From: a virus
Virus record (IMG/VR): IMGVR_UViG_3300021091_005330
Coordinates: 1-64,000 of that record
Length of the DNA stretch: 64,000 bases
Direction: 5' to 3' (one strand)
In this document: positions 11,606-57,262 of the stretch, piece after piece
How positions within the stretch are numbered: the stretch's first letter is position 1
How the letters are laid out: each line of letters opens with the position of its first letter
Made by a program: the position numbers and the translations under genes
Notes under the pieces: generated by a model
What the model was told of the DNA's origin: nothing
The model's input: only the letters and a program-made list of their open reading frames with translations
Databases searched by the model: none

Positions 11606-13804
11606 ATGAGTCTTACTTTTCCAATTATTAATAATAAATTGTTAGGGGATTTGCCTTTTAATTTAAATGTTACTAGCACTTTATCTGATACAATATCTTA
11701 CAATAGTTCTCATGAAAATGTGGCTCTAGTAGATTACAATGGAAACGTTAGTATTGTTGGCGTAGGAGATTGTGTAATAACCGCTACTCAAAATCAAAAT
11801 ACAGCAAATAGAACTTTAAGAGTTATTATGCCAAATATTTGTGGAGATTTACCTCCAGAGATTTGTGGTTATAATTTTTATAATTATAAATTAACTTTAT
11901 CTGGAGATGAAAATAATGTTAATTTACCAAATACAAAACATAAATTAATCATATCAACAAATTGTAGCGGTAATTTTGTCCCTTTCCATGAAAGCGAATA
12001 TCTTCCGTATAATTCAGAGAATGTATATTATGCTAATTTGAATTCTGGAGATTATAAAGTAGAAATCAAAACTTTACATACTGATCCAACTACTTTTCCA
12101 TGCTGTCCAGTAATTGGAGTAGAAGTACTAAATTTAATAGATTATACATATAGTAATAAAACATCATTATGTGTATTTAATAATAATTTCTTGACTTTTA
12201 TAAGTGGATTTTTAGCGGAAAATCCTTATAATCAAGCTTCAAATATTTATTTTGCAGACAATCCATTTTTTATATCAGGCTCTGATTTAACAAGAAATAC
12301 TGGAGATTTAATTAATACTTTAGTGAAATCAAAAGCAAAAGAAAAAGAATATGAAAGATCTTGCCTTAATCAAGTATTAGATTTAGTAACAGGGAAAGTA
12401 CTAAAAAATGAAGAAGAAGTTCCGTATATTAATTGGAATGAAAATGCTTTTAAAGTAATTAATATTATTACAAATAATCTGCCTTTATTAGAAACATTTC
12501 ATAAGGAACAAGACGATTGTAAAACTTTAGATCCAAATTATCATCCTTCAGTTGGAACAGAAATTACTGGTTTTTATCAAAAATTAAAAGATATAAAAAA
12601 TTTATTGAATCCAGAAAAAACAACTATTAATTTTGTATTTTCAGATAAAGAATTAAATCTTAATTTAGATCAAGAACAATCTTTTGTAAATGAAGAATCA
12701 GCCGTATTAATGTATCAAAAAGCTGCAGAAATTGTTAGCGGATCTTTTTTTAGAAATTCAATCGCTCCTGTATTCCAATCAATTAATGCTATATCAAACT
12801 TTACATGCTCTGGTCAATCTAAAATAGAAATTTCATCTTCATCTTCATCTTCTTCAATCCCACCATTTAATAATCCAATTATTATTTTCCCACCTCCACC
12901 TCCACCACCTCCTCCACCACCTCGGCCACCACCACCTCCGCCACCACCACCTCCACCACCTCCGCCACCACCACCTCCACCACCTCCCCCACCACCCCCT
13001 CCACCTCCCCCCCCCCCACCCCCACCCCCCCCTTCACCACCACCATCTCCTGCTTATCCATCTCCAGTTCCACCTCCTCCTCCACCACCACCATCTCCTG
13101 CTTATCCATCTCCAGCGCCTGTTTCACCACCACCGCCAAATCCTGGTCCTCCTCCACCCAATATTCGATGTAGAGCTTGTGCAAGTTATGATGGAGGAGT
13201 TGGTAATAAAAATCCCTGGTGTGACGCATTTTCTTGTGCAGCTAAACATGGAGGGAGTATTTTTGATTATCAATCTTGCGCTGATGTAGTAGTGGAGGGC
13301 ACACCTGGTTGCGCACGTCCAACATATGTTTGTCAAAAATGTAGAAAAAAATGTTGGGATAATTGCCAATGTAAAGGCTGTCGTGGGTGTACTGCATGTT
13401 GTCCTTGTCCATATTTTTGTTGCGATGCATTTTGTGTTTCTTGTGGAGATTGTGGAACTTGCGTTTATGAATGCAATTGTTTAAGCATAAAAGTAAACTC
13501 TTTGTATGATGCAAACCTATCTAGTAATGATGCAGAATCAATTGCATACGAAATTGTGTTAAAAGAAATTTCTGAATTAAATGATAATTTACAATTTATA
13601 GAATCTGCAATTAGCGCAGCAATGTATATTGGAATGTATCATTTAGATACAAATACAATTAAATTTTCTCCAAACGGAAGAAAGCATTTAGTTTTTTGTT
13701 TAAATGAAATGCTGGGGGCAGATTATTCTAATTATAATGAGATTATTGAGCGACATCAAAATAATGCAAAAAATGAAGTTAAAGCTCAAAGAGGTATATT
13801 ATGA
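11606..13804 (+). CDS. Virion protein: Big_2 Ig domain, poly-Ser, poly-Pro (extensin-like) stalk, Cys-rich domain
   Basis: N-terminal SSHENVALVDYNGNVSIVGVGDCVITATQ; P11-R-P36 tract; SPAYPSP repeats; dense CxxC/CC cluster. Confidence 0.75.
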   Translation: MSLTFPIINNKLLGDLPFNLNVTSTLSDTISYNSSHENVALVDYNGNVSIVGVGDCVITATQNQNTANRTLRVIMPNICGDLPPEICGYNFYNYKLTLSGDENNVNLPNTKHKLIISTNCSGNFVPFHESEYLPYNSENVYYANLNSGDYKVEIKTLHTDPTTFPCCPVIGVEVLNLIDYTYSNKTSLCVFNNNFLTFISGFLAENPYNQASNIYFADNPFFISGSDLTRNTGDLINTLVKSKAKEKEYERSCLNQVLDLVTGKVLKNEEEVPYINWNENAFKVINIITNNLPLLETFHKEQDDCKTLDPNYHPSVGTEITGFYQKLKDIKNLLNPEKTTINFVFSDKELNLNLDQEQSFVNEESAVLMYQKAAEIVSGSFFRNSIAPVFQSINAISNFTCSGQSKIEISSSSSSSSIPPFNNPIIIFPPPPPPPPPPPRPPPPPPPPPPPPPPPPPPPPPPPPPPPPPPPPPPPPSPPPSPAYPSPVPPPPPPPPSPAYPSPAPVSPPPPNPGPPPPNIRCRACASYDGGVGNKNPWCDAFSCAAKHGGSIFDYQSCADVVVEGTPGCARPTYVCQKCRKKCWDNCQCKGCRGCTACCPCPYFCCDAFCVSCGDCGTCVYECNCLSIKVNSLYDANLSSNDAESIAYEIVLKEISELNDNLQFIESAISAAMYIGMYHLDTNTIKFSPNGRKHLVFCLNEMLGADYSNYNEIIERHQNNAKNEVKAQRGIL
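12890..13115 (+). repeat. CCN-codon poly-proline tract with C11 homopolymer and 33-bp direct repeat
   Basis: Pro codons 12890-12922 and 12926-13033; C11 at 13007-13017; caccaccaccatctcctgcttatccatctccag at 13035-13067 and 13083-13115. Confidence 0.9.
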
Positions 13805-20215: not shown

Positions 20216-20244
20216 ATATTAATATAATTTTAAGATTTTGTCAA
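20216..20244 (-). promoter_or_regulatory. sigma70-type promoter, leaderless geometry
   Basis: TTGACA-17-TAATAT-6 nt-ATG(20209). Confidence 0.7.
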
Positions 20245-24283: not shown

Positions 24284-24313
24284 ATAGTATCCTATATATA
24301 AATATTTGTCAAG
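24284..24313 (-). promoter_or_regulatory. sigma70-type promoter, leaderless geometry
   Basis: TTGACA-18-TACTAT-6 nt-ATG(24277). Confidence 0.65.
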
Positions 24314-27730: not shown

Positions 27731-28492
27731 TTAGCCTCTTTCTTTCTCTTTCCAACTTTCGAAAGAAAAGTCGTTACTAGTCATATGTTCAATTTCTGGT
27801 TTATTTAAATTAGTTCTTGCATTGATGCATCTAAAAGTCAAGTAAGCTTTAAAATCTGTTTTTAGTTTATAATAAATACTTTTTACATTAATAATTTGAT
27901 TTTTATTTTTCGAACAATAATCTATTACTTTTGATTTTATTAAGTTATCGAATGGAATATTATTATTTTCAATAAAAAATATAGGGGAGCAGAAGTCTAT
28001 CTGTGGGGTACAAAGAGTATTTTTTAATACATTATTAAATATGAATGAATCGTAAAAGGGGACAGAGAGTAATAAATCATTATTATCCCATATAGATTTT
28101 AACGTTTTAAAATCTGTTCTTGGTTCATAATAGAAACCATTTTTTGCTGCTATACTAAATATTTTAATAAGTCTTTTGTAGCCTTCATTATTTTTAAAAA
28201 AAATTACGAACTTAGAATTTTTTACTCTACTCTCTTCGCTTTTGTCCTCTAGATTATCTGTTACAGTTAATCTTAACCCGTATCTTAAATTAATATTATT
28301 TTTCTTGCAATTTGTATAGGCTTGTAAAAAGGATGTCATATTATCTTCTACTAGATAAAGATTCTTTAAATTATTTTCTTTTATAATATTAATAATTGAA
28401 TTGGGATAAAATTCTTCTTGGGCCTCATCTTCAAGAGTCAATATAGATCTACCTATGCTATAGTGAGATTTAAATAAAGGTAATGCATCCAT
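27731..28492 (-). CDS. Stand-alone PHP domain of DNA polymerase III alpha (metal ligands degenerate)
   Basis: FKSHYSIGRS, YGLRL, FFKNNEGYKRLIKIFS..GFYYEPR match the DnaE N-terminus. Confidence 0.85.
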   Translation of the reverse strand: MDALPLFKSHYSIGRSILTLEDEAQEEFYPNSIINIIKENNLKNLYLVEDNMTSFLQAYTNCKKNNINLRYGLRLTVTDNLEDKSEESRVKNSKFVIFFKNNEGYKRLIKIFSIAAKNGFYYEPRTDFKTLKSIWDNNDLLLSVPFYDSFIFNNVLKNTLCTPQIDFCSPIFFIENNNIPFDNLIKSKVIDYCSKNKNQIINVKSIYYKLKTDFKAYLTFRCINARTNLNKPEIEHMTSNDFSFESWKEKERG

Positions 28493-28498
28493 AAGCTA

Positions 28499-28526
28499 AT
28501 TATATTTATAATATTTATCTTGTCAA
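28499..28526 (-). promoter_or_regulatory. sigma70-type promoter, leaderless geometry
   Basis: TTGACA-16-TATAAT-6 nt-ATG(28492). Confidence 0.75.
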
Positions 28527-32513: not shown

Positions 32514-32542
32514 ATGATATCTATTTATATTTTAAAAGTCAA
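32514..32542 (-). promoter_or_regulatory. sigma70-type promoter, leaderless geometry
   Basis: TTGACT-17-TATCAT-7 nt-ATG(32506). Confidence 0.65.
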
Positions 32543-34729: not shown

Positions 34730-34758
34730 AGTTTAACACGATAGTATTTTATTGTCAA
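34730..34758 (-). promoter_or_regulatory. sigma70-type promoter, leaderless geometry
   Basis: TTGACA-17-TAAACT-6 nt-GTG(34723). Confidence 0.7.
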
Positions 34759-35276: not shown

Positions 35277-36143
35277 GTCCCTTAGTAATGTTTTTGTGTC
35301 ATATGCTGGGCCAAAAACTATCGACCAAGATCTTTCGCATAAATATCCATACACCCAGTGTTTTAAATTTAAATCTTTTATTTTTTTATAGCTCTCTATA
35401 GAGTTTTGTAAAATTCTATCTTTTTTAACACCGAAGCATGCGCCAATGCACATAAAATATATTGATGGAAATTTTCTTTGATTAAATTTTGGAGTTATCT
35501 CGCATTTATTTAAAAAATTTTCAATTATATTGATATTAGCATCTTTCTTGAGCGTATGACACAAACTATCTATACTTGTAAATTTTTCATTTGGAAATCC
35601 AAGTTCTTTTAAAACTTCTAAATATAAATTCATATCATATGGAAAAAAATAATCTGCCGCTAATAAATACTTTAAATTATAAAGATGCCCTGAGCATCTG
35701 TATTCTTTTAAATGCTTATTTTTTATGTGCTCTGCCTCTAAAACTTTTTTTGGAGGAACTTCGTGTTCATCTGAATATCGGTCAGTCAAACACTGAAAAC
35801 TTTCATAATCTTCATAATTTTTTAATAATTTCGAAAAATCAGGAGAGTGCTTATGAGGTTCAGCCTGAGTAAATATTGTTAAATCTGCTAAATTATCATA
35901 GTTTTTTATTATGTGGTGTAAGTATGTATCGCTTTCTCTGCCTTCGTTGGGTAATTTTAATATTTTAGATTTTGGATTTTTTTGTAATGTTGTTAAAAAA
36001 TAAGATAAAGACATAGTCGGTTCTAAATTGGATTCATCTAATTTCTGATAAAAATATACATTAAAATTATTTGGTATATCATTTAAAATCCAATTAATTT
36101 CAGATTCATTATAATAAGATATAACTATGTCTATTTTATTCAT
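35232..36143 (-). CDS. DUF3431-like (glycosyltransferase-like) protein
   Basis: PNEGRESDTYLHHIIKNYDNLADLTIFTQ; ERSW..VF. Confidence 0.75.
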   Translation of the reverse strand: MNKIDIVISYYNESEINWILNDIPNNFNVYFYQKLDESNLEPTMSLSYFLTTLQKNPKSKILKLPNEGRESDTYLHHIIKNYDNLADLTIFTQAEPHKHSPDFSKLLKNYEDYESFQCLTDRYSDEHEVPPKKVLEAEHIKNKHLKEYRCSGHLYNLKYLLAADYFFPYDMNLYLEVLKELGFPNEKFTSIDSLCHTLKKDANINIIENFLNKCEITPKFNQRKFPSIYFMCIGACFGVKKDRILQNSIESYKKIKDLNLKHWVYGYLCERSWSIVFGPAYDTKTLLRDLNIFPSDGEKWWQS

Positions 36144-37227
36144 TTATTTTATTAAATTTATTTATAGCAGATCCAATAATTTGATGCATATCATAATACT
36201 TATATTCTGCTAATCTCCCTCCAAAGATTACCTTTGTTTCTTTTACACTCAAATCTTTATATTTTTTATAAACTTCATTATTCATGTCATTATTAACTGG
36301 GTAGTATGGAGTTTTGTCTTTATTCCATTCGTCTGGATATTCTTTAGTTACATATGTGTATTCTTGGTCTTTAAATTCGAAATGTTTATGTTCTATTATC
36401 CTTGTGTAAGGTATATTATAATCCGTATAGTTTATAACCGCATTTCCTTGGTAATCCTTAATTAAATATTTTTTCGTTTCAAATCTCAAGCTTCTGTATT
36501 CTAGTTGTCCGTATTCATAATTAAAAAATTCATCTATTTTACCAGTATAAACTATACATTTAGCTTTTTTATCCCAATAATCTTTTCTGTCAAAATAATT
36601 TTCATTCAAGATGATATCCGCACCATCTACCATATTTTCTATCATTTTTGTATAACCCCCAATTGGAATTCCTTGATATTTATCAAAAAAATAATTATCA
36701 TCAAAATTTAATCTAATTGGTAGTCTTTTTATAATAAAAGATGGAAGCTCTTTGGGCTCTTTTCCCCATTGTTTTTTAGTATAACCATATATAAAGGTAT
36801 GATAAATTTCTTCCCCAACTTGACTTAATATCCATTCTTCTAGATTCTTTGGTTCTTTGATTTTAAGTTTAACTTCTTTTAGTTTATTTTTCGCTTCTTC
36901 TGGCGTATTAACTCCCCAAAGCTGGTATAATGTGAAAAGATTGATAGGAAAAGAAAACAATTTATTCTTAAAATTAACTTTTGGTCTATTAATATAATTA
37001 TTAAATTTTGTAAATTTATTTATATAATCCCAAATTTCATCATTATTTGTATGAAATATATGAGGGCCATACTTGTGGATATTAATTCCTTCAATATTTT
37101 CTGTATAGCAATTTCCTCCTATATGATTTCTTGAGTCTATGATTAAACATTTTTTACCGTTTTCTTTGGCTTTATTCGCAAATGTAGCTCCAAAAAGACC
37201 ACAACCAACAATTAGAAAATCATACAT
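36136..37227 (-). CDS. glf: UDP-galactopyranose mutase
   Basis: GCGLFG, HIGGNCY, HKYGPHIFHT, PYYP, GRLAEYKYYDMHQ. Confidence 0.97.
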   Translation of the reverse strand: MYDFLIVGCGLFGATFANKAKENGKKCLIIDSRNHIGGNCYTENIEGINIHKYGPHIFHTNNDEIWDYINKFTKFNNYINRPKVNFKNKLFSFPINLFTLYQLWGVNTPEEAKNKLKEVKLKIKEPKNLEEWILSQVGEEIYHTFIYGYTKKQWGKEPKELPSFIIKRLPIRLNFDDNYFFDKYQGIPIGGYTKMIENMVDGADIILNENYFDRKDYWDKKAKCIVYTGKIDEFFNYEYGQLEYRSLRFETKKYLIKDYQGNAVINYTDYNIPYTRIIEHKHFEFKDQEYTYVTKEYPDEWNKDKTPYYPVNNDMNNEVYKKYKDLSVKETKVIFGGRLAEYKYYDMHQIIGSAINKFNKINE

Positions 37228-37229
37228 AA

Positions 37230-37853
37230 TTATTCTGTGTTAAATATTTTAGCCCAAGATCTTTCATAAAAATGTCCAATTTCGGGATCTAATTCGTTTA
37301 GTTCTGGATCATTTAATAAACTCTCATAAAACTTTAAGGGTCTAGTATGAATATATTCTCTAGAAATAGCAAAAATAGCCTTTTGATACCACTTAAACTT
37401 TCCTTCATCATCAGAGATTTCAAAATGTTTTTTCCATTCGTATAAGGTATGTCTTGATTTCGAAACAGGTTTGTTTCCGTGATTGTTGATTTTAAAATTT
37501 TTATAACCGCCAAATGGTTCAACCCATTCTGGATAAAAATTTTTGTTTAAAGAATAGCCATAAATTTGTGCTTCAATATATAGCTTGTGTAAATAGCTCT
37601 CTGAAAAGCCGTGGTCATTAATTGATCCTTGAGAAAATATATTTATTTCATTTAAATTATTGTATTTATTTACAATATGATATATATACGTATGAGATTC
37701 TCGACCAACATTTTCTAATTTAGTAATATTAAAAGTTCCATTTAAGTCTTCTTCTCCTTTATTATATACAAAAATATTATCGTATTCAGATGTTACCCAT
37801 GATAAATCTTCTTTATATCTTGCGACTATTAAATCTGCTTTATGAAATTTCAT
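37230..37853 (-). CDS. DUF3431-like protein
   Basis: IVARYKEDLSW, ENVGRESHTYIYHIV, GHFYERSW. Confidence 0.8.
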   Translation of the reverse strand: MKFHKADLIVARYKEDLSWVTSEYDNIFVYNKGEEDLNGTFNITKLENVGRESHTYIYHIVNKYNNLNEINIFSQGSINDHGFSESYLHKLYIEAQIYGYSLNKNFYPEWVEPFGGYKNFKINNHGNKPVSKSRHTLYEWKKHFEISDDEGKFKWYQKAIFAISREYIHTRPLKFYESLLNDPELNELDPEIGHFYERSWAKIFNTE

Positions 37854-38913
37854 TATTTTCTATATCATTTTTCACCATTCTTTTCACTAAATCATCAAAA
37901 GAATTTTTTGGATTCCATTTTAATTCATTTCTAGCTATAGAAGAATCTCCTAACAAAAGACTGACTTCAGCTGGTCTATAAAATTGTTTATTTATTTTAA
38001 CCAAAGTCAATGGCATATATCTTGGTGTGGAATTAATTGCAGTTTTATATTCTAGATTTTCTGGAATTTCTTCATTAGAAGAATATGACCAATGAGCTAA
38101 AACCCCTGCTGATTTAAAAGCTTTTTCTACGAACTCTTTAATAGTATGAGTTTCGCCAGAAGAAAGTATATATTCTTTGGGCTCATTTTGATTTAACATC
38201 AGCCAGATGCCTTCAATAAAATCTTCTGCATGACTCCAATCTCTTTTAGCTTCTAAATTGCCAAGTTCAATTGGCAAAAAATTTTCATTCTTTTTTAAGC
38301 TATGAAATATTCTTGCTACTCCTTTTGTAATTTTTCTGCTTACGAATTCTTCTCCTCTTCTTTCGCTTTCGTGATTATAAAGTATTGAGTGAATAGCATA
38401 TAAATTATAAGATTCCCTATATACCTTTGTTATATGTCTAGCAGAAGCTTTTGCTGCTCCATAAGGGCTTCTAGGTCTAATTGGATGATTTAAATCTTGA
38501 GGACTATACAAAACATCTCCCATTTCTTCGCTAGAACCAGCAGAATAAAATCTACAATTCGGCGCATATTTTCTTATTGCTTCTAAGCACCTTAGAACTC
38601 CTAAAGCTACAGTATCAAATGTTTGTATAGGCAGTTGCCAACTACTACCTACAAAAGATTGAGCCGCAAAATTAATAAAATAGTCTGGCTTAACATCTTT
38701 TACTATTTCGTCTATAGAATTGCTATCAGATAGGTCAGCTATAATAATTTTTAGTCTAGGGTTATTAATATTATGTTTTATATTTTTTAAATTTGGATTA
38801 GAGCTTCTTCTTCTTATGCCATAAATTTCATAATCAGTATTATTTAATATAAAATCAACCATATAAGAGCCATCTTGTCCCGTGACTCCTGTGACTATAA
38901 CTTTTTTGCTCAT
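37840..38913 (-). CDS. gmd: GDP-mannose 4,6-dehydratase
   Basis: GVTGQDGSY, AAQSFV, PRSPYGAAK, NHESERRG, RDW, FYRPAEV. Confidence 0.95.
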   Translation of the reverse strand: MSKKVIVTGVTGQDGSYMVDFILNNTDYEIYGIRRRSSNPNLKNIKHNINNPRLKIIIADLSDSNSIDEIVKDVKPDYFINFAAQSFVGSSWQLPIQTFDTVALGVLRCLEAIRKYAPNCRFYSAGSSEEMGDVLYSPQDLNHPIRPRSPYGAAKASARHITKVYRESYNLYAIHSILYNHESERRGEEFVSRKITKGVARIFHSLKKNENFLPIELGNLEAKRDWSHAEDFIEGIWLMLNQNEPKEYILSSGETHTIKEFVEKAFKSAGVLAHWSYSSNEEIPENLEYKTAINSTPRYMPLTLVKINKQFYRPAEVSLLLGDSSIARNELKWNPKNSFDDLVKRMVKNDIENNEIS

Positions 38914-39548
38914 ACTTTTATAATATCTTTAAGTTGTTCTAATTTAGATTTTTCATTTCCAGTATTATTTTCGGTAAGTCCTAAGGCATGATAAATAAAG
39001 CTTCCATGATCATTAAAAGAGTGAGACGGAAAAGTAGAAGTTTTTTCAGCAAATTTTTTATAATTTTCTCTAAGCATGGCTTGAAAAATTGGTTGATCGT
39101 CTATTGAGCCATCGTTTATTTCACAAGCTTCTATTGAGGAATTAATTATATCCAACATATATTCAGAACTTTTAATAAAAAATACTCCAAAATTAAAATT
39201 CCAATATCTATCTTGTGGCTTTTGATTAACGTAACATACTATAAATTCAGCATTTTTGTCGGACATCTCTATAAAATTTTTTAAATTGATGTCATGATTT
39301 AATATTACAGCATCCGCATCTAAATAAAAAATCCAGTCATATTTTTCATTTTCTATTATTGATTTTAATATAAATGGTTTATTCCAGTATGCTCTTCTTT
39401 CATTAGTTATGCTTTTAGGAACAAAATCTCCAATATAGTCTTGATAATCTAAATTGTATTTTTTGCAATACTCTATATTCTTTGGTTTAGTTAAATTGAG
39501 CGCGTTCATAAACCTGTCATCGGAATGTTGTATGACTTTAATACGCAT
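38910..39548 (-). CDS. GT34-like glycosyltransferase
   Basis: YWNKPF, WIFYLDADAVI, NFGVFFIK, DQ. Confidence 0.75.
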   Translation of the reverse strand: MRIKVIQHSDDRFMNALNLTKPKNIEYCKKYNLDYQDYIGDFVPKSITNERRAYWNKPFILKSIIENEKYDWIFYLDADAVILNHDINLKNFIEMSDKNAEFIVCYVNQKPQDRYWNFNFGVFFIKSSEYMLDIINSSIEACEINDGSIDDQPIFQAMLRENYKKFAEKTSTFPSHSFNDHGSFIYHALGLTENNTGNEKSKLEQLKDIIKV

Positions 39549-39554
39549 ATTAAA

Positions 39555-39583
39555 ATTATAAAATAAAAATATTTTTAAGTCAA
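39555..39583 (-). promoter_or_regulatory. sigma70-type promoter, leaderless geometry
   Basis: TTGACT-17-TATAAT-6 nt-ATG(39548). Confidence 0.75.
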
Positions 39584-39591
39584 AATAATTT

Positions 39592-39620
39592 TTGACAAAA
39601 TTATAAATACTTTATAATAT
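39592..39620 (+). promoter_or_regulatory. sigma70-type promoter facing the structured non-coding segment
   Basis: TTGACA 39592-39597, 17 nt, TAATAT 39615-39620; no start codon at the usual leaderless distance. Confidence 0.65.
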
Positions 39621-39629
39621 AAATCATAC

Positions 39630-39910
39630 ATACCGCTCAATTAGCGGATAAGGTTTGTCGTACTCCGTGAAACGATAAGTCTTATTAGTTCGCGCGTGGG
39701 CAACGCTATCGGAGCTTGCGACCCAGAAAACCACTAGTAATAATGGGTGTGTAGGTGTAAGGGCTAACACGAGAATGACAGTCCTACCGGTGTCTGATAA
39801 GTGTTAGGAGCCGAAAGGCTTATGGACTCAATTGGGAAGTTGAACTAATAGACTTTTATAGCCCTTTTACAGGGAAAGCTCCGCTTTGGGGAGCTCATTG
39901 GGAAGTTAAA
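39630..39910 (+). ncRNA. Putative structured ncRNA of unrecognised family
   Basis: GC-elevated ORF-free island with multiple hairpins, GNRA loops, long-range pairing and two candidate pseudoknots, behind its own promoter. Confidence 0.6.
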
Positions 39911-40034
39911 TAATTAAACGTAACGATACACTTGATTATGTCTTTTTATTAAATGTTAATAACAAATTAAAATTTTCTTTTTAAAAAAGTAAAACTACTG
40001 TAACATAAATATATCTGTTGGAGAAAGTTATTTA

Positions 40035-42296
40035 ATGAATAAAAGTTTTAATGTAAAAAAAAGAAATGGGGCAACTGAAAAATTTGATATAGAAAAAATA
40101 CATAAAGTAATTAACTGGGCGATAGAAGATTTATCTAATGTTAGCTTAACGGATATAGAAATAAATGCTAAAATTAATTTGCACGACGGAGTTTCAACAA
40201 AAGAAATACATAAACTTTTAATTGAATCTGCTGCCAATTTAATTTCTGTACAAAAACCTAATTATCAATATGTCGCTGGTAGGCTTTTGAATTATCAACT
40301 TAGAAAAGATGTATGGAAAGGAAAGCATGCTCCAAGATTACTAGAATTCCTTAATCAAGGACTAAAAAATAAAATTTATGATCCTATCATATTAGGAAAA
40401 TATACAGAAGATGAAATTAACAAAATGGGTGAATTTGTGGACCATGAAAAAGATTATGATTTTACATACGCTGGTATAAAACAATTGTGTGACAAATATT
40501 TAATAAAAGATCGGGTTACGCATAAGATATACGAAACTCCTCAATTTGCTTATGTATTAATATCTGCTTATGCTTTTATTAACTATCCAAAAGAAACTAG
40601 ATTATCATATGTTAGAAAATTTTATGAGGCTATAAGCAAACATAAGATTAATCTTCCTACGCCAGTTATGGCTGGAGTAAGAACTCCTAGTAAGAATTAT
40701 GCTAGTTGTTGCTTAATTGGTGTTGACGATACTCGCGAAAGCATAACAGCAAGTGCTACTGCAGTTAGTATGGCTACAGCTAACAGATGTGGCATTGGAA
40801 TAGATGTTAGCAAAATTAGAGCTCTTGGCTCTCCAATTAAAAACGGAGAAGTAGTGCATACAGGTTTGATTCCTTTTTTAAAAATCTATGAAAGTAGTGT
40901 TAAAGCTTGGCAGCAAAATGGGTTAAGAGGAGGAAGCGCCACTTGTAATATTCAATGGTGGCATTATGAAATAGAAGACATTGTTGTATTAAAAAATAAT
41001 GCTGGTACAGATGATAATCGTGTTAGAAAATTAGATTATACAGTTGGAATGAGTAAACTTTTTTACGATAGAGTATTAAAAGATGAAGACATTATTCTAT
41101 TTAATACTGTTGAAGTTCCAGAACTTTATGAAGCTTGGGGCACGAAAGACTTTGATAAAATATATAAAGAATGCGAATCTAAAAAATTAAAAATAAAAAA
41201 GAAAATTTCTGCTAGAAGATTATTTTCTTTAATAATTAAAGAAAGAGTTGAGACTGGAAGAATTTATATTCTTAACGTAGATCACGCTAATAATCATGGG
41301 GCTTGGTTAGACAAAGTAACAATGAGTAATTTATGTACCGAAGTTATACATCCAACTATTCCTTTAAACGATTATAATGATAAAGACGGAGAAATTGGAA
41401 TGTGCATTCTTTCAGCAGTCAATATGCTTGAAATTAAAAATTGGCAAGATTTAGAAAAAACTTGTGATCTTATCGTTAGGTTTCTTGACGAAATTATCGA
41501 GCTTCAAGATTATTTTAATATTGCTGCAGAAAATTTTGCAAAAAAACGTCGTAGTCTTGGAATAGGCATAACAAATCTTGCTGCTTATTTCGCTAAAAAT
41601 GAATTAAAATATACTTCTGATAAAACGTTATCAACTTTAGACGAATGGATGGAGCACTTTCAATATTATCTTTTAAAATCTAGTTTAGAATTAGCCAAAG
41701 AAAAAGGTAAATGCGAAAAATTTGATAGAACAAAATACGCTAAAGGTATACTTCCTATTGATACATACAAAGATAAAGTAGATGAAATTTGTAAAAGGAA
41801 ACTTTGTTTAGATTGGGAATCTCTTAGGAAAGAAATAAAAGAACATGGTTTAAGACATTCTACATTATCTTCATGTATGCCTTGTGAAAGTAGTTCTGTT
41901 ATTCAATCTTCTACTAATGGAGTAGAGCCAATAAGAAGCTTAATAACGTATAAAATGAGTAAAATGGGTAAGCTACCAGTATTAGTTCCAGGGGTTGGTA
42001 AATATGATGATAATTATGAATTAGCCTATGATTTTAAAGATAATACTGGAATATTAAAAGTTAATGCTATTATTCAAAAATATATTGACATGGCTATTTC
42101 AACTAATGTATACTATAATTATTCACATTATGAAAACAATATTCTTCCAGATTCAAAAGTTATGAAAGAAATTATGTATGCTTATAGTTTAGGCTTAATT
42201 AGCTTATATTACAATAATAGCGATGATGGAGATAAAGAACAGCTAATGAACCAAAAAGAAGATAGAGATTGCTCCTCTGGAGCATGTAAACTATAA
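40035..42296 (+). CDS. nrdA: Ribonucleoside-diphosphate reductase class Ia, alpha subunit (with ATP cone)
   Basis: VKKRNG ATP cone, PTPVMAG, ASCCL, SNLCTE, C-terminal CSSGAC. Confidence 0.97.
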   Translation: MNKSFNVKKRNGATEKFDIEKIHKVINWAIEDLSNVSLTDIEINAKINLHDGVSTKEIHKLLIESAANLISVQKPNYQYVAGRLLNYQLRKDVWKGKHAPRLLEFLNQGLKNKIYDPIILGKYTEDEINKMGEFVDHEKDYDFTYAGIKQLCDKYLIKDRVTHKIYETPQFAYVLISAYAFINYPKETRLSYVRKFYEAISKHKINLPTPVMAGVRTPSKNYASCCLIGVDDTRESITASATAVSMATANRCGIGIDVSKIRALGSPIKNGEVVHTGLIPFLKIYESSVKAWQQNGLRGGSATCNIQWWHYEIEDIVVLKNNAGTDDNRVRKLDYTVGMSKLFYDRVLKDEDIILFNTVEVPELYEAWGTKDFDKIYKECESKKLKIKKKISARRLFSLIIKERVETGRIYILNVDHANNHGAWLDKVTMSNLCTEVIHPTIPLNDYNDKDGEIGMCILSAVNMLEIKNWQDLEKTCDLIVRFLDEIIELQDYFNIAAENFAKKRRSLGIGITNLAAYFAKNELKYTSDKTLSTLDEWMEHFQYYLLKSSLELAKEKGKCEKFDRTKYAKGILPIDTYKDKVDEICKRKLCLDWESLRKEIKEHGLRHSTLSSCMPCESSSVIQSSTNGVEPIRSLITYKMSKMGKLPVLVPGVGKYDDNYELAYDFKDNTGILKVNAIIQKYIDMAISTNVYYNYSHYENNILPDSKVMKEIMYAYSLGLISLYYNNSDDGDKEQLMNQKEDRDCSSGACKL

Positions 42297-42833
42297 ATGT
42301 ATTTTTCTCAGATAGGACAGGATAGGCTTGTGGATAATTTTTTAGATTTTAAAACTAATGGATATTTTTTAGATATAGGAGCTCATCATTACAGACACAT
42401 AAGTAATACTTACTTTTTTGAAAAGGTAAGAAATTGGCGAGGAATCGCAGTAGAGCTAGATCAATCATTTCAAAACGAATGGATCTCTAATAGACCTAAT
42501 TCTATTTTTATTAATCAAAACGCTTTAGATATTAACTATAGAGATTTATTATTAAAATATGATTTTTCATTAAAAATAGATTTTCTTTCTTTAGATTTAG
42601 AGCCACCAGAAGTAACTCTTGAGGCTTTATACAAAATATTTCAAAGTGATATTACTTTTAACACTATAGCTTTTGAAGTAGATGATTATAGACAAAAGAA
42701 TACTAAGAATAAATCTCGGGAATTTTTATCATCTAAAGGTTACCATTTTGTAGCAGAACTTTATGATAGAAATAATTCTGGTATGATACATGTAGACGAT
42801 TTTTGGGTACATAAGTCTATTCTAAAAAATTAG
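42297..42833 (+). CDS. FkbM-like SAM methyltransferase
   Basis: SQIGQD, FLDIGA, SNTYFFE..W.GI.VE, IDFLSLDLE. Confidence 0.8.
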   Translation: MYFSQIGQDRLVDNFLDFKTNGYFLDIGAHHYRHISNTYFFEKVRNWRGIAVELDQSFQNEWISNRPNSIFINQNALDINYRDLLLKYDFSLKIDFLSLDLEPPEVTLEALYKIFQSDITFNTIAFEVDDYRQKNTKNKSREFLSSKGYHFVAELYDRNNSGMIHVDDFWVHKSILKN

Positions 42834-52710: not shown

Positions 52711-53222
52711 TTGTTAGCGTAGAAAACTTATTAGATTTTAATTGCTGTAATAATTTAATATCTATTTATAAAGATAACAGCGATAAAAGTAAACTATGGG
52801 GAACCTCTTTCCCATTAAATGTTTTTCAAATACCTTTTCGCAAACAACAAAATTATATTTTCGAAGTAAAAAATTTTATTAAAAATTTTGCTGTGAATTT
52901 CTATAAAGAAAATTTAATAGAAGAACATATAGATATTGTGAAGTGGCCTAATGATTCATATCAGAATTACCATTTAGACACAGCAAGAAATACTACAGTT
53001 TTAACTTCTATATCTTATTTAAATGATGATTTTCAAGGAGGAGAAACCATTATAAATACAGAAGAAAAAGCTGTGAAAATTGTTCCCACTAAGGGTAAAA
53101 CAGTATTTTTTGATGGTTTAAAATACTTGCATTGCGTAAATAAGGTTTTTGGAGAAAGATATGTTTTGGCTATATGGTATAAAAGTTTAAATTTAAAAAA
53201 TATTGACTTTAAAGCTACTTAA
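52707..53222 (+). CDS. 2OG-Fe(II) oxygenase, prolyl 4-hydroxylase-like
   Basis: HLD...YLNDDFQGGET...H.V..V..GERY. Confidence 0.85.
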   Translation: MIVSVENLLDFNCCNNLISIYKDNSDKSKLWGTSFPLNVFQIPFRKQQNYIFEVKNFIKNFAVNFYKENLIEEHIDIVKWPNDSYQNYHLDTARNTTVLTSISYLNDDFQGGETIINTEEKAVKIVPTKGKTVFFDGLKYLHCVNKVFGERYVLAIWYKSLNLKNIDFKAT

Positions 53223-53231
53223 TGGTATTAT
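53203..53231 (+). promoter_or_regulatory. sigma70-type promoter, leaderless geometry
   Basis: TTGACT-17-TATTAT-6 nt-ATG(53238). Confidence 0.65.
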
Positions 53232-56808: not shown

Positions 56809-56874
56809 GTAAAGATTGTATGAAGTATACATACGATTGTCTAATAAAAATGCAGACAGGGGGATTCGTTTGCT

Positions 56875-57262
56875 TGGACCCGAAGAGAATTGAACTCTTG
56901 TCTTTTAGTGAATTTAAATTAAAATACTACAAGTTTAGTTATTTTTAGTTTTAGCTTTATATAGAAAAACAACAAACATATTTAGCGATTTTATTTTGAA
57001 TACTAAGCCAATAAAGAACAAAAAAACTTTAAAGACCAAGACATCTAAATACGCAACTATCCATTAGATGTGTCATGGTAATCACGCTGTAGAACTTAGG
57101 CTACAGATACGGTCTCCTCAACTAGAGAAACTCTAGCAGAGATATGACCTTTGTATTTGGCTGTTTTAGCAGTTAATACTTTTAAGGCTTTTTAAAGAGA
57201 CCCACCTAAACCTCTACCTGCATTTTAATTTCGACTCCTAAAATCGAAACCAGTACGGGCCC
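56875..57262 (-). ncRNA. ssrA: tmRNA (transfer-messenger RNA)
   Basis: 5' GGGCCCGUACUGGUUUCGA, 3' GACAAGAGUUCAAUUCUCUUCGGGUCCA; acceptor stem with G3.U70; resume context UAACU-GCU; tag ORF 57170-57096 AKTAKYKGHISARVSLVEETVSVA*; CCA not encoded. Confidence 0.92.

What the first reader, a model, noticed from the sequence alone, without database searches (positions are those of the whole stretch)
39592..39910. Unassigned, promoter-driven, pseudoknotted ncRNA of about 280 nt at the strand switch before nrdA
Seen: this is the only long ORF-free region apart from the tmRNA. It is markedly GC-richer than the flanks and starts just downstream of a TTGACA-17-TAATAT promoter that, unlike its siblings, has no start codon 6-7 nt later. 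Hand-found pairings: CCGCT/AGCGG (39633-37/39643-47); TAAGGTTTGTCGT/ACGATAAGTCTTA (39649-61/39672-84), whose loop CTCCG (39663-67) matches CGGAG (39710-14); GCGT/ACGC (39694-39706); CCACTA-GTAA-TAATGG; GTAGG/CCTAC (39751-55/39783-87); GTGT/ACAC enclosing AAGGGCTA (39759-66), a perfect complement of TAGCCCTT (39859-66); AGCC-GAAA-GGCT (39809-20); long-range TATTAGTTC/GAACTAATA (39683-91/39842-50); AGCTCC/GGAGCT (39877-95). Inference: a compact multi-pseudoknot RNA (ribozyme, scaffold, primer RNA or nrdA leader). I cannot match it to tRNA, tmRNA, RNase P, 6S or group I/II intron cores.
Basis: partly seen in the sequence, partly recalled or inferred. Interest (0 to 1): 0.85.

Follow-up and report, generated by a model that had tools for sequence, protein, structure and literature searches.

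The report
Knotted twin-box RNA of lake phages
The gene-free, GC-rich stretch before nrdA is a real stand-alone gene for a roughly 285-base, doubly knotted RNA that matches no catalogued RNA family; it carries two short stretches that drift in evolution yet always stay identical to each other, and its job is unknown.

Summary
Window 39628-39910 (+) is a promoter-driven, ORF-free, GC-rich island. It has homologues in 203 lake-virus and lake-metagenome loci (115 distinct full-length sequences) and none in the cellular genomes that matched my search pattern.

A full-length covariance model aligned 71 distinct copies. 95.7% of base-pair cells form pairs, against 31-42% in slid controls, and 57 of 69 pairs show compensatory changes. 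Both of its pseudoknots and three hairpins are not. The real pseudoknots are 39710-17/39876-83 and 39751-55/39783-87.

It is not an nrdA leader. In many relatives the gene lies elsewhere, in 72 loci back-to-back with the phage tmRNA gene. There is no match in Rfam, including RNase P, cobalamin and Polynucleobacter-1.

Every copy carries them as an exact 10-13-nt repeat, in 16 variants with no exception. I found no complementary partner in the RNA or in a complete carrier genome.

Function is unknown. My best inference, at low confidence, is a mechanism that depends on the two boxes being identical, as in persistent RNA:DNA hybrids. A twin-seed trans-acting RNA is the close rival.

This scan had already noted the same family on other genomes.

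The parts
39592..39620 (+). Sigma-70-type promoter TTGACA-17 nt-TAATAT of the RNA gene. It stands back-to-back with the leaderless promoter of the minus-strand glycosyltransferase operon (39583-39555).
   Evidence: TTGACA(A)-17-TAnnAT, followed 6-8 nt later by ACATA, is kept in nearly all homologues.
39628..39910 (+). The RNA itself, about 283 nt. The conserved 5' end is ACAUA. Conservation stops just after box 2. The 3' end is not defined by an intrinsic terminator.
   Evidence: nhmmer and covariance-model matches are full length, 1-289, in 71 distinct homologues. No terminator-like site was found.
39633..39647 (+). P1 hairpin (39633-36 with 39644-47).
   Evidence: helix 1: 97.5% paired, 4 of 4 pairs with compensatory changes.
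39650..39657 (+). J1/2, AAGGUUUG: a nearly invariant single-stranded stretch.
   Evidence: Invariant or near-invariant columns. No supported partner was found.
39657..39676 (+). P2a hairpin (39657-61 with 39672-76).
   Evidence: helix 2: 99.7% paired, 5 of 5 pairs compensatory.
39677..39691 (+). P2L 5' strand. It forms a long-range helix with 39842-39855, with U39682 bulged, and closes the central multiloop.
   Evidence: helix 3: 14 pairs, 98.5% paired, 14 of 14 compensatory.
39698..39724 (+). P3 hairpin (39698-700 with 39722-24; 39704-06 with 39718-20). It has a conserved CAA/A internal loop, and its apical loop is the 5' strand of pseudoknot A.
   Evidence: helices 4 and 5: 100% paired, 4 of 6 pairs compensatory.
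39710..39717 (+). Pseudoknot A, 5' strand (CGGAGCUU). It pairs with 39876-39883.
   Evidence: helix 6: 97.8% paired within group 1. helix 6: 85% paired, with alignment slips in group 2, and 4 pairs compensatory. The pairing can also be read directly in all groups.
39731..39746 (+). P4 hairpin with a GNRA loop (GUAA, 39737-40). It is longer in group 2.
   Evidence: helix 7: 95.9% paired, 5 of 6 pairs compensatory.
39751..39755 (+). Pseudoknot B (P5), 5' strand GUAGG. It pairs with CCUAC at 39783-87, which lies in the loop of P6/P7.
   Evidence: helix 8: 98.3% paired, 2 pairs compensatory.
39764..39807 (+). P6 (39764-70 with 39801-07) enclosing P7 (39776-80 with 39791-95). The P7 loop carries CCUAC (39783-87).
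   Evidence: helices 9-11: helix 9 (six P6 pairs) 100% paired and helix 11 (P7) 96.8% paired, 9 of 11 pairs compensatory. The seventh P6 pair (39770/39801, helix 10) is only 51% paired, partly because of alignment slips in group 2.
39808..39821 (+). P8 hairpin with a GAAA tetraloop (39813-16).
   Evidence: helix 11: 100% paired. It is replaced by a longer hairpin in group 2.
39828..39841 (+). Box 1: UC, one extra A (39830), then AUUGGGAAGUU (39831-41). It is single-stranded and abuts the P2L 3' strand.
39842..39855 (+). P2L 3' strand.
   Evidence: helix 3.
39862..39874 (+). Px hairpin (39862-65 with 39871-74). Its 3' strand runs into the conserved GGGAAAG.
   Evidence: helix 14: 90% paired, 4 of 4 pairs compensatory.
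39876..39883 (+). Pseudoknot A, 3' strand (AAGCUCCG).
   Evidence: helix 6.
39895..39907 (+). Box 2: UC followed by AUUGGGAAGUU (39897-907). It is the last conserved element of the RNA.
56875..57262 (-). Phage tmRNA gene. It is 17 kb away in this genome, but it is the immediate divergent neighbour of the twin-box RNA gene in 72 related loci.

Best explanation
Shown:
- Window 39628-~39910 (+) is a stand-alone gene for a structured non-coding RNA of about 285 nt.
- It has its own sigma-70-type promoter, of the same TTGACA-17-TAnnnT type as the leaderless promoters in this window.
- It is found only in a clade of AT-rich, uncultured lake phages that also encode a tmRNA.
- The RNA folds into a closed multiloop (P2L) that holds four hairpins and two pseudoknots.
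- The fold leaves two identical purine-rich 10-13-nt boxes with no paired partner in the covariation model. Box 1 sits in the junction next to P2L. Box 2 forms the 3' tail just behind pseudoknot A.

Inferred:
- The only visible constraint on the boxes is that they equal each other.
- They therefore most likely work through nucleic-acid pairing in which one copy is read against the other locus. For example, the RNA copy of box 1 could pair with the template DNA strand, or with any complementary strand, at box 2.
- That would give a persistent RNA:DNA hybrid of the ColE1 RNA II kind. Such a hybrid could end the transcript, which has no terminator, or provide a primer.
- In this reading the folded body positions box 1.

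I put the 'real, new, stand-alone structured RNA' part at about 0.9. I put the self-referential hybrid mechanism at about 0.3. The confidence given for this entry is that of the whole statement, mechanism included.
For: Structure:
- 71 distinct homologues align full length to model R1.
- 95.7% of pair cells are paired, against 31-42% when the partners are slid.
- 57 of 69 pairs show compensatory changes.
- The covariation score is 0.51, against 0.04-0.08 in the controls. No shuffle out of 500 reached the observed values.

Gene status:
- The promoter is conserved.
- No ORF is present and the GC island is clear.

Not a leader:
- The gene occupies at least three genomic contexts.

Boxes:
- All 115 distinct full-length sequences carry an exact 10-13-nt repeat at the same two places. 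There are 16 variants, and the spacing is 64-76 nt.
- The preceding UC/UU changes in both copies together: 97 and 16 cases, with none mixed.
- Cell identity between the boxes is 702 of 707; the five odd cells are all in L012, whose boxes the model alignment puts out of register although they are an exact repeat.
- Transitions such as G to A and C to U are always matched in both copies. Wobble pairing to a fixed RNA partner would have tolerated unmatched ones.

No partner found:
- No covarying partner lies within the RNA.
- Matches to the complement of the box at up to one mismatch are no more frequent than chance in the window, in G001, in G002 or in the complete genome G157.

Other points:
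- No terminator follows box 2.
- Each box contains an all-purine run of 5-9 nt.
- In ColE1, pairing of an rG stretch of RNA II with a dC stretch of the template is needed for the persistent hybrid, and phage T4 oriF/oriG use R-loops (PMC4412123).
Against: - No experiment or transcript data exist. The 3' end is unknown.
- In the complete relative G157 the gene lies 9 kb from the main strand switch and GC-skew minimum. It points head-on at the nrd operon. An origin role therefore gets no positional support. The coincidence with the skew minimum in this genome (39638) is explained by gene orientation.
- A fold this elaborate is more than a primer is known to need.
- The one extra nucleotide in box 1 is conserved, which a pure identity mechanism does not predict.
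- A partner encoded by the unknown host cannot be excluded.
Confidence: 0.3

Rival explanations
1. A trans-acting regulator or sponge RNA with twin seeds. The knotted body is a stable scaffold that shows two equal single-stranded seeds to two copies of one partner. The partner could be a host RNA or ssDNA, a repeated host sequence such as a defence RNA, or a dimeric protein. That partner differs between hosts and drags both boxes along.
For: The boxes have no paired partner in the covariation model, contain an all-purine run and each lie downstream of a structured element. The sequence differs between closely related phages whose nrdA is 88-93% identical, as expected if the partner is host-specific. 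No phage-encoded target was found, so any target would be in the host. Phage-encoded anti-sRNAs and RNA anti-CRISPRs are known kinds (my own knowledge, not tested here).
Against: Seeds of base-pairing RNAs are normally the most conserved part, whereas here the boxes change as freely as loops do. Wobble-compatible single changes (G/A, C/U) in only one box never occur among 115 sequences. The host is unknown, so no target could be tested. The RNA has no Rho-independent terminator or U-tail of the kind typical of Hfq-dependent sRNAs.
Confidence: 0.3
2. An RNA template with terminal repeats. A polymerase copies the 64-76-nt unit from box 2 to box 1. The new strand then re-aligns on box 2. Telomerase templates and DRT2 ncRNA work this way, and RNA polymerase copies a short product RNA from 6S RNA.
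For: Exact direct repeats flanking a unit of nearly constant length, which stay identical while drifting, are what re-alignment needs.
Against: No reverse transcriptase was found in G000, G001, G002, G158 or the complete G157. The unit length is not a multiple of three, and no frame stays open around the unit across the homologues. No three-box or tandem forms occur in IMG/VR contigs. The unit consists of strands that are needed for the fold (P2L 3', Px, pseudoknot A 3').
Confidence: 0.08
3. A partner or accessory of the phage tmRNA, or of stable-RNA and ribosome biology in general. It could be a processing, docking or regulatory RNA for the phage's own ribosome-rescue system. Or it could be an RNA-only architectural particle like ROOL and GOLLD, which also sit beside tRNA genes.
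For: The gene lies back-to-back with the tmRNA gene in 72 of 203 loci, always divergent, with spacers of 109 to 299 nt. Six more loci are divergent at 0.8-4.5 kb. All carriers examined encode the tmRNA (G000, G001, G002, G157). The related T4-like G003 lacks both.
Against: The adjacency is confined to two sub-lineages (2b, 2c) and may trace to a single rearrangement. Here and in G001 and G002 the two genes are 16-18 kb apart. No convincing or homologous complementarity exists between the boxes and the tmRNA or its leader. The phages encode no SmpB.
Confidence: 0.12
4. A cis-acting leader or riboswitch of nrdA. Cobalamin and NrdR-type controls of nrd genes would be the analogues.
For: In this window the RNA lies 125 nt upstream of nrdA on the same strand with no terminator between them. 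GGGAAG recalls a conserved cobalamin-riboswitch word (my own knowledge).
Against: In groups 2b and 2c the gene is on the opposite strand downstream of the nrd cluster. In L143 it is next to other genes. No hit to the cobalamin families or any other Rfam family at E up to 10. GGGAAG is absent from group 2.
Confidence: 0.03
5. A diverged or permuted member of a known large RNA class: RNase P RNA, a tmRNA fragment, a group I intron core or 6S RNA.
For: Short words resemble RNase P conserved regions: GAGG(G)AAAGUC before a pseudoknot strand, GGUGUAAGGG and GAUAAGUG. This comes from my reading against remembered consensus sequences.
Against: cmscan at E up to 10 gives nothing for these classes on ten family members. 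The order and strand polarity of the look-alike words cannot be obtained from RNase P by circular permutation (my own analysis). The RNA has no tRNA-like domain.
Confidence: 0.02

Closest known systems
ColE1 RNA II (plasmid primer RNA) and T4 oriF/oriG R-loop origins
   Same: A promoter-driven, folded, non-coding transcript without a classical terminator. In ColE1 an upstream purine (rG) stretch of the RNA must pair with the matching dC stretch of the template further downstream to form a persistent hybrid (PMC4412123). That amounts to the same word occurring twice on the coding strand, as with the twin boxes.
   Different: There is no sequence or structural homology. ColE1 has homopolymer G/C runs, not a drifting 10-13-nt word. 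RNA II has no pseudoknots. An R-loop or primer role is untested here, and the position of the gene in the complete genome G157 does not support an origin.
Large 'ornate' bacterial and phage ncRNAs of unknown function (ROOL, GOLLD, raiA, OLE; Rfam)
   Same: An intricately folded RNA of unknown function found by comparative analysis. It is phage-borne and in many genomes lies beside a stable-RNA gene (the tmRNA here; tRNA genes for ROOL and GOLLD, from my own knowledge and 10.1101/2024.12.08.627333).
   Different: It is much smaller (about 285-325 nt against 500-800 nt). No covariance-model match was found. The twin co-evolving boxes have no described counterpart in those classes.
Polynucleobacter-1 RNA motif (Rfam RF01718; Weinberg et al. 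2010, PMC2864571)
   Same: A freshwater habitat and unknown function. Earlier notes of this scan linked larger 'twin-box' RNAs of other lake phages to it.
   Different: RF01718 finds nothing in G000-G003. My model R1 gives only noise on three genuine RF01718 loci with the filters off. No shared motifs are visible.
Template RNAs with terminal repeats (telomerase RNA, DRT2 ncRNA)
   Same: Two identical short direct repeats bound a unit of nearly fixed length.
   Different: No reverse transcriptase is present in the carrier genomes. There is no conserved open frame around the unit and no tandem products in assemblies.

Membership tests
Any Rfam 15 family | A covariance-model score at or near the family's gathering threshold. 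| tested here: not met
   Only the tmRNA at 56874-57262 passes in the window. On 39450-40100 at E up to 10 the only match is a 20-bit csRNA chance hit over the promoter. Nine related loci at E up to 10 give only tmRNA and chance hits.
Polynucleobacter-1 (RF01718) | A match to the 141-position RF01718 model, and reciprocal recognition. | tested here: not met
   No match at E up to 10 in G000-G003. R1, run with filters off on the loci of the three genuine RF01718 instances and one sub-threshold match, gives only fragments of 13.6 bits or less, and none coincides with the RF01718 element.
Bacterial RNase P RNA (RF00010/RF00011) | Conserved regions CR-I to CR-V in order, with the P4 pseudoknot formed by CR-I (5') and CR-V (3'). 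| tested here: not met
   No cmscan hit. The GGGAAAG-bearing strand is the 3' strand of the pseudoknot here. The order of the look-alike words is not a circular permutation of RNase P (my reading).
Cobalamin riboswitch (RF00174/RF01689) or other nrd leader | A conserved core with the B12 box, and a constant position upstream of the regulated gene. | tested here: not met
   No cmscan hit. The gene is not upstream of nrdA in groups 2b and 2c.
ColE1-type primer RNA / R-loop origin | A persistent RNA:DNA hybrid at a defined site, processed by RNase H and extended by a DNA polymerase. | not testable with these tools
   Only indirect features were seen: a promoter, no terminator, and twin boxes that each contain an all-purine run. 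Position relative to the strand switch and GC skew agrees in G000 but not in the complete G157.
Retron/DRT-type template ncRNA | An associated reverse transcriptase gene. | tested here: not met
   PF00078 is absent from G000, G001 and G002 and from G157 (100% complete) and G158. The control genomes gave matches.
Protein-coding or tmRNA-like tag ORF | A conserved reading frame or stop codons across the boxes. | tested here: not met
   The box spacing is 64-76 nt, in all three residue classes modulo 3. No frame is open in all groups. There is no conserved start codon, and stops follow box 1 only in some groups (my reading).

The most novel reading that the evidence does not exclude
The twin boxes reveal a mechanism not yet described for a bacterial or phage ncRNA. 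A rigid, doubly knotted RNA would hold one copy of a freely drifting 10-13-nt word so that it pairs with the DNA template, or with a nascent complementary strand, at the second copy. That would create a programmed persistent hybrid that ends transcription, primes DNA synthesis or supports repeat synthesis. This could be coupled to the phage's own tmRNA locus.
Probability: 0.3. Interest if true: 0.9.

Novelty: categorically new. Interest (0 to 1): 0.8.

Why it matters
New large structured RNAs with strong covariation support are rare, and several such classes discovered earlier turned out to be riboswitches. This one is abundant in lake viromes. It has two verified pseudoknots, and it shows a clean signature of constraint: two sites that must be identical but may be anything. 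That signature points to a pairing or templating mechanism that can be tested directly with compensatory box mutants. Its repeated back-to-back placement with a phage tmRNA gene offers a second handle. If the boxes do programme an RNA:DNA hybrid, this would be a new way for a phage to end a transcript or start DNA synthesis. If they are seeds, it is a new class of phage anti-host RNA.

Tried and rejected
1. Rfam at gathering and at E up to 10 on the window and on nine related loci: nothing.
2. Permuted RNase P, a tmRNA paralogue or a group I intron core: word resemblances only, with the wrong topology.
3. A never-ending (Neo-like) ORF around the inter-box unit: the spacing is not a multiple of three and no frame is open across the homologues.
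4. Small peptides across the boxes: no conserved start, frame or stop.
5. A partner for the boxes within the RNA. Scans of all column pairs on the MAFFT and covariance-model alignments gave only a weak, all-wobble four-column run against the invariant GCUUUG linker, and that run does not covary with the variable end of the box.
6. A phage-encoded complementary target: matches at up to one mismatch are no more frequent than chance in G000, G001, G002 and the complete G157.
7. Pairing with the phage tmRNA or its leader: the predicted sites are not homologous.
8. Reverse transcriptase or SmpB in the carriers: absent.
9. Tandem three-box forms in IMG/VR: none belongs to the family.
10. Polynucleobacter-1 kinship: not detectable in either direction.
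11. An origin read from GC skew: the minimum at 39638 in this genome is the gene-strand switch. In complete G157 the RNA lies 9 kb from the minimum.
12. The 'T4-like' label used in earlier notes: no Gp23 capsid match in G000, G001, G002, G157 or G158, although the search does find it in G003.
13. The phage collection of GenBank records (INPHARED): no blastn match.

Full report
**What is there**

Window 39549-40027 is the longest stretch of the window without an ORF of 60 aa or more. The tmRNA locus is the second longest. Between 39650 and 39900 the GC content is 44-49%, in a genome of 29% GC and against flanks of 16-30%. A sigma-70-type promoter, TTGACA-17-TAATAT, lies at 39592-39620. It stands back-to-back with the promoter of the minus-strand glycosyltransferase operon. 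Seven sibling promoters in the window have a start codon 6-7 nt after the -10 element, so their mRNAs are leaderless. This promoter has none. No Rfam family matches, either at the gathering thresholds or at E up to 10.

**Relatives**

The window comes from a 77.6-kb IMG/VR virus record. nrdA-anchored loci, two pattern scans of IMG/VR and one scan of metagenomes gave 203 loci with a homologue of the element. Among them are 115 distinct full-length sequences. None of the 70 pattern matches in the collection of 185,579 prokaryotic species genomes is a family member, and GenBank phages gave no match. Nearly all copies keep TTGACA(A)-17-TAnnAT followed by ACATA.

The carriers are AT-rich phages of about 135-172 kb with their own DNA polymerase and a DnaB-type helicase. 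They gave no match to the T4 Gp23 capsid family, even in a 100%-complete genome, although the same search finds Gp23 in the unrelated G003. The 'T4-like' label of earlier notes therefore does not hold for this clade.

**Structure**

I derived helices by reading subgroup representatives. I then built a full-length covariance model from 23 group-1 sequences (A2, R1). All 71 distinct sequences that I searched aligned to it end to end. On that alignment I counted eleven nested helices plus two pseudoknots:

- 95.7% of cells are paired, against 31-42% when the partners are slid.
- 57 of 69 pairs show changes on both sides.
- The covariation score is 0.51, against 0.04-0.08 in the controls.
- No shuffle out of 500 reached the observed values.

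Group 1 alone, on a plain MAFFT alignment, already gave 96.4% against 32-46%.

In window coordinates the architecture is:

| Element | Coordinates | Note |
|---|---|---|
| P1 | 39633-36 / 39644-47 | hairpin |
| P2a | 39657-61 / 39672-76 | hairpin |
| P2L | 39677-91 / 39842-55 | long-range, closes the multiloop |
| P3 | 39698-700 / 39722-24 and 39704-06 / 39718-20 | its loop forms pseudoknot A |
| Pseudoknot A | 39710-17 / 39876-83 | |
| P4 | 39731-36 / 39741-46 | GNRA loop |
| Pseudoknot B (P5) | 39751-55 / 39783-87 | 3' strand lies in the P7 loop |
| P6 | 39764-70 / 39801-07 | encloses P7 |
| P7 | 39776-80 / 39791-95 | |
| P8 | 39808-12 / 39817-21 | GAAA loop |
| Px | 39862-65 / 39871-74 | |

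- loop CTCCG/CGGAG, 54% paired;
- AAGGGCTA/TAGCCCTT, 51.5%;
- AGCTCC/GGAGCT, 63%;
- GCGT/ACGC, 62%;
- GTGT/ACAC, which conflicts with P6.

The single-sequence folding energy is unremarkable (z = -1.47).

**Not an nrdA leader**

In group 1, group 2a and L012 the gene sits upstream of nrdA at a divergent junction, as it does here. In groups 2b and 2c it lies downstream of the nrd cluster on the opposite strand. In L143 it lies beside unrelated genes. In the complete genome G157 it is a lone plus-strand gene inside a block of 43 minus-strand genes.

**The tmRNA neighbour**

cmscan of small related loci unexpectedly showed a tmRNA gene next to the RNA. Across all loci, 72 have the two genes back-to-back and divergent, with spacers of 109-299 nt and most often 297 nt. 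Six more are divergent at 0.8-4.5 kb. In most loci the 297-nt spacer holds a small leaderless ORF, while the shortest spacers hold only the two promoters. All carriers examined encode the tmRNA, with a nearly identical tag, AKTAKYKGHISARVSLVEET(V/A)SVA in most. G003 has neither RNA. In this window the tmRNA is 17 kb away. The linkage is confined to two sub-lineages, so it counts as a lead, not as evidence of function. I found no convincing complementarity between the two RNAs, and the phages encode no SmpB.

**The twin boxes**

AUUGGGAAGUU occurs at 39831-41 and again at 39897-907.

- Every one of the 115 distinct sequences has an exact 10-13-nt repeat at these two places.
- There are 16 variants, for example AUUGGAAAGUA, ACUGGGAAGU, AUUGGGAAUUU, AAAGAAAAGUU and AGGGAAAAAGUUU.
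- The spacing is 64-76 nt.
- The UC or UU in front changes in both copies together: 97 and 16 cases, none mixed.
- Box 1 always carries one extra nucleotide after this dinucleotide.
- In the model alignment 702 of 707 box cells are identical between the two copies; the five odd cells are in L012, whose boxes are misaligned there although they are an exact repeat.

The boxes change about as freely as loop sequence does between phages whose nrdA is 88-93% identical. Transition differences, which wobble pairing to a fixed RNA partner would tolerate in one copy only, are always matched in both. No covarying partner exists inside the RNA. Matches to the complement at up to one mismatch are no more frequent than chance in the window, in G001, in G002 or in the complete G157. 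The unit between the boxes does not encode a peptide or an endless frame. The carriers lack a reverse transcriptase. No tandem three-box forms exist in assemblies.

**What it most likely does**

What is established is this: it is a stand-alone RNA gene under a promoter of the same type as the window's leaderless promoters, with a closed, doubly knotted fold. The fold leaves two identical boxes, each containing an all-purine run, without a paired partner. One lies in the central junction and one at the 3' end.

The rest is inference. The only visible constraint on the boxes is mutual identity, so I favour a mechanism in which one copy is read against the other locus. The simplest version is that the RNA copy of box 1 pairs with the template DNA strand at box 2.

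The known precedent is ColE1 RNA II. There, an upstream rG stretch must pair with the matching dC stretch of the template to form the persistent hybrid. Phage T4 also uses promoter-driven R-loops (PMC4412123). Two features fit this reading:

- No terminator follows box 2.
- The pseudoknot A strand ends about 14 nt before box 2. By my estimate from the usual length of nascent RNA held inside RNA polymerase (own knowledge), the fold can close only while the polymerase is on box 2.

An origin role as such is not supported by position. In G157 the gene lies 9 kb from the strand switch and skew minimum. The match in this genome simply follows gene orientation.

The close rival is a twin-seed trans-acting RNA aimed at a host-specific partner. 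I could not test that without knowing the host.

**Comparison with the known, and novelty**

It is not a member of any Rfam family. That includes Polynucleobacter-1, which earlier notes of this scan linked to larger twin-box RNAs and which I tested in both directions. It resembles ROOL and GOLLD only in being an ornate phage RNA next to stable-RNA genes. It resembles ColE1 RNA II only in logic. I know of no described bacterial or phage ncRNA with a co-evolving identical pair of boxes.

The same family was already noted by this scan on other genomes. My results agree on the fold and the boxes. They add the tmRNA linkage, the complete-genome tests and the non-T4 capsid result. They do not support kinship with Polynucleobacter-1 for this form.

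Noticed in passing
window 20216-20244(-), 24284-24312(-), 28499-28526(-), 32514-32542(-), 34730-34758(-), 39555-39583(-), 53203-53231(+): Seven TTGAC(A/T)-17-TAnnnT promoters are followed by ATG or GTG exactly 6-7 nt after the -10 element. Many genes of this phage therefore appear to be expressed as leaderless mRNAs. The same holds for a small ORF between the tmRNA and the twin-box RNA in L192.
   Followed up: partly
window 56875-57262 (-): A phage-encoded one-piece tmRNA with an unusually long tag, AKTAKYKGHISARVSLVEETVSVA. It does not end in the usual ALAA. It is nearly identical in G001, G002 and G157. The phages encode no SmpB.
   Followed up: partly
window 12880-13130 (+), inside ORF 11606-13804: A 69%-GC island turns out to be a run of about 80 codons that are almost all proline (CCA/CCT/CCC/CCG), inside a 732-aa protein. 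It is not an RNA element.
   Followed up: partly
window 39927-39941 (+); also 34786, 34844, 57725(-): ACACTTGATTATGT lies between the RNA and nrdA and resembles an NrdR-box half-palindrome. A (G)TACAC(T) word recurs downstream of the RNA in arrangement-A relatives and just upstream of the -35 element in L006-type promoters. TACACTT is not over-represented in the window as a whole (11 observed against 8.2 expected).
   Followed up: partly
window 42297-42833 (+): A 178-aa ORF with no Pfam match is wedged between nrdA and nrdB. Relatives such as L009 have nrdA directly followed by nrdB.
   Followed up: no
window 36136-39548 (-): A sugar-modification operon lies directly divergent from the RNA gene: UDP-galactopyranose mutase, DUF3431, a GDP-mannose 4,6-dehydratase-like protein and a GT34-like glycosyltransferase.
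   Followed up: no
G000:C1:68910-68996 (outside the window); G001 28171-28260: ARAGORN calls a tRNA-Ser with the unusual anticodon ACU in two carrier genomes. In G001 it lies about 1 kb from the tmRNA gene.
   Followed up: no
G157 (L493-L501), ends: The first 200 nt of the 171.9-kb record recur at 171559. The contig therefore closes on itself with an overlap of about 357 bp.
   Followed up: no
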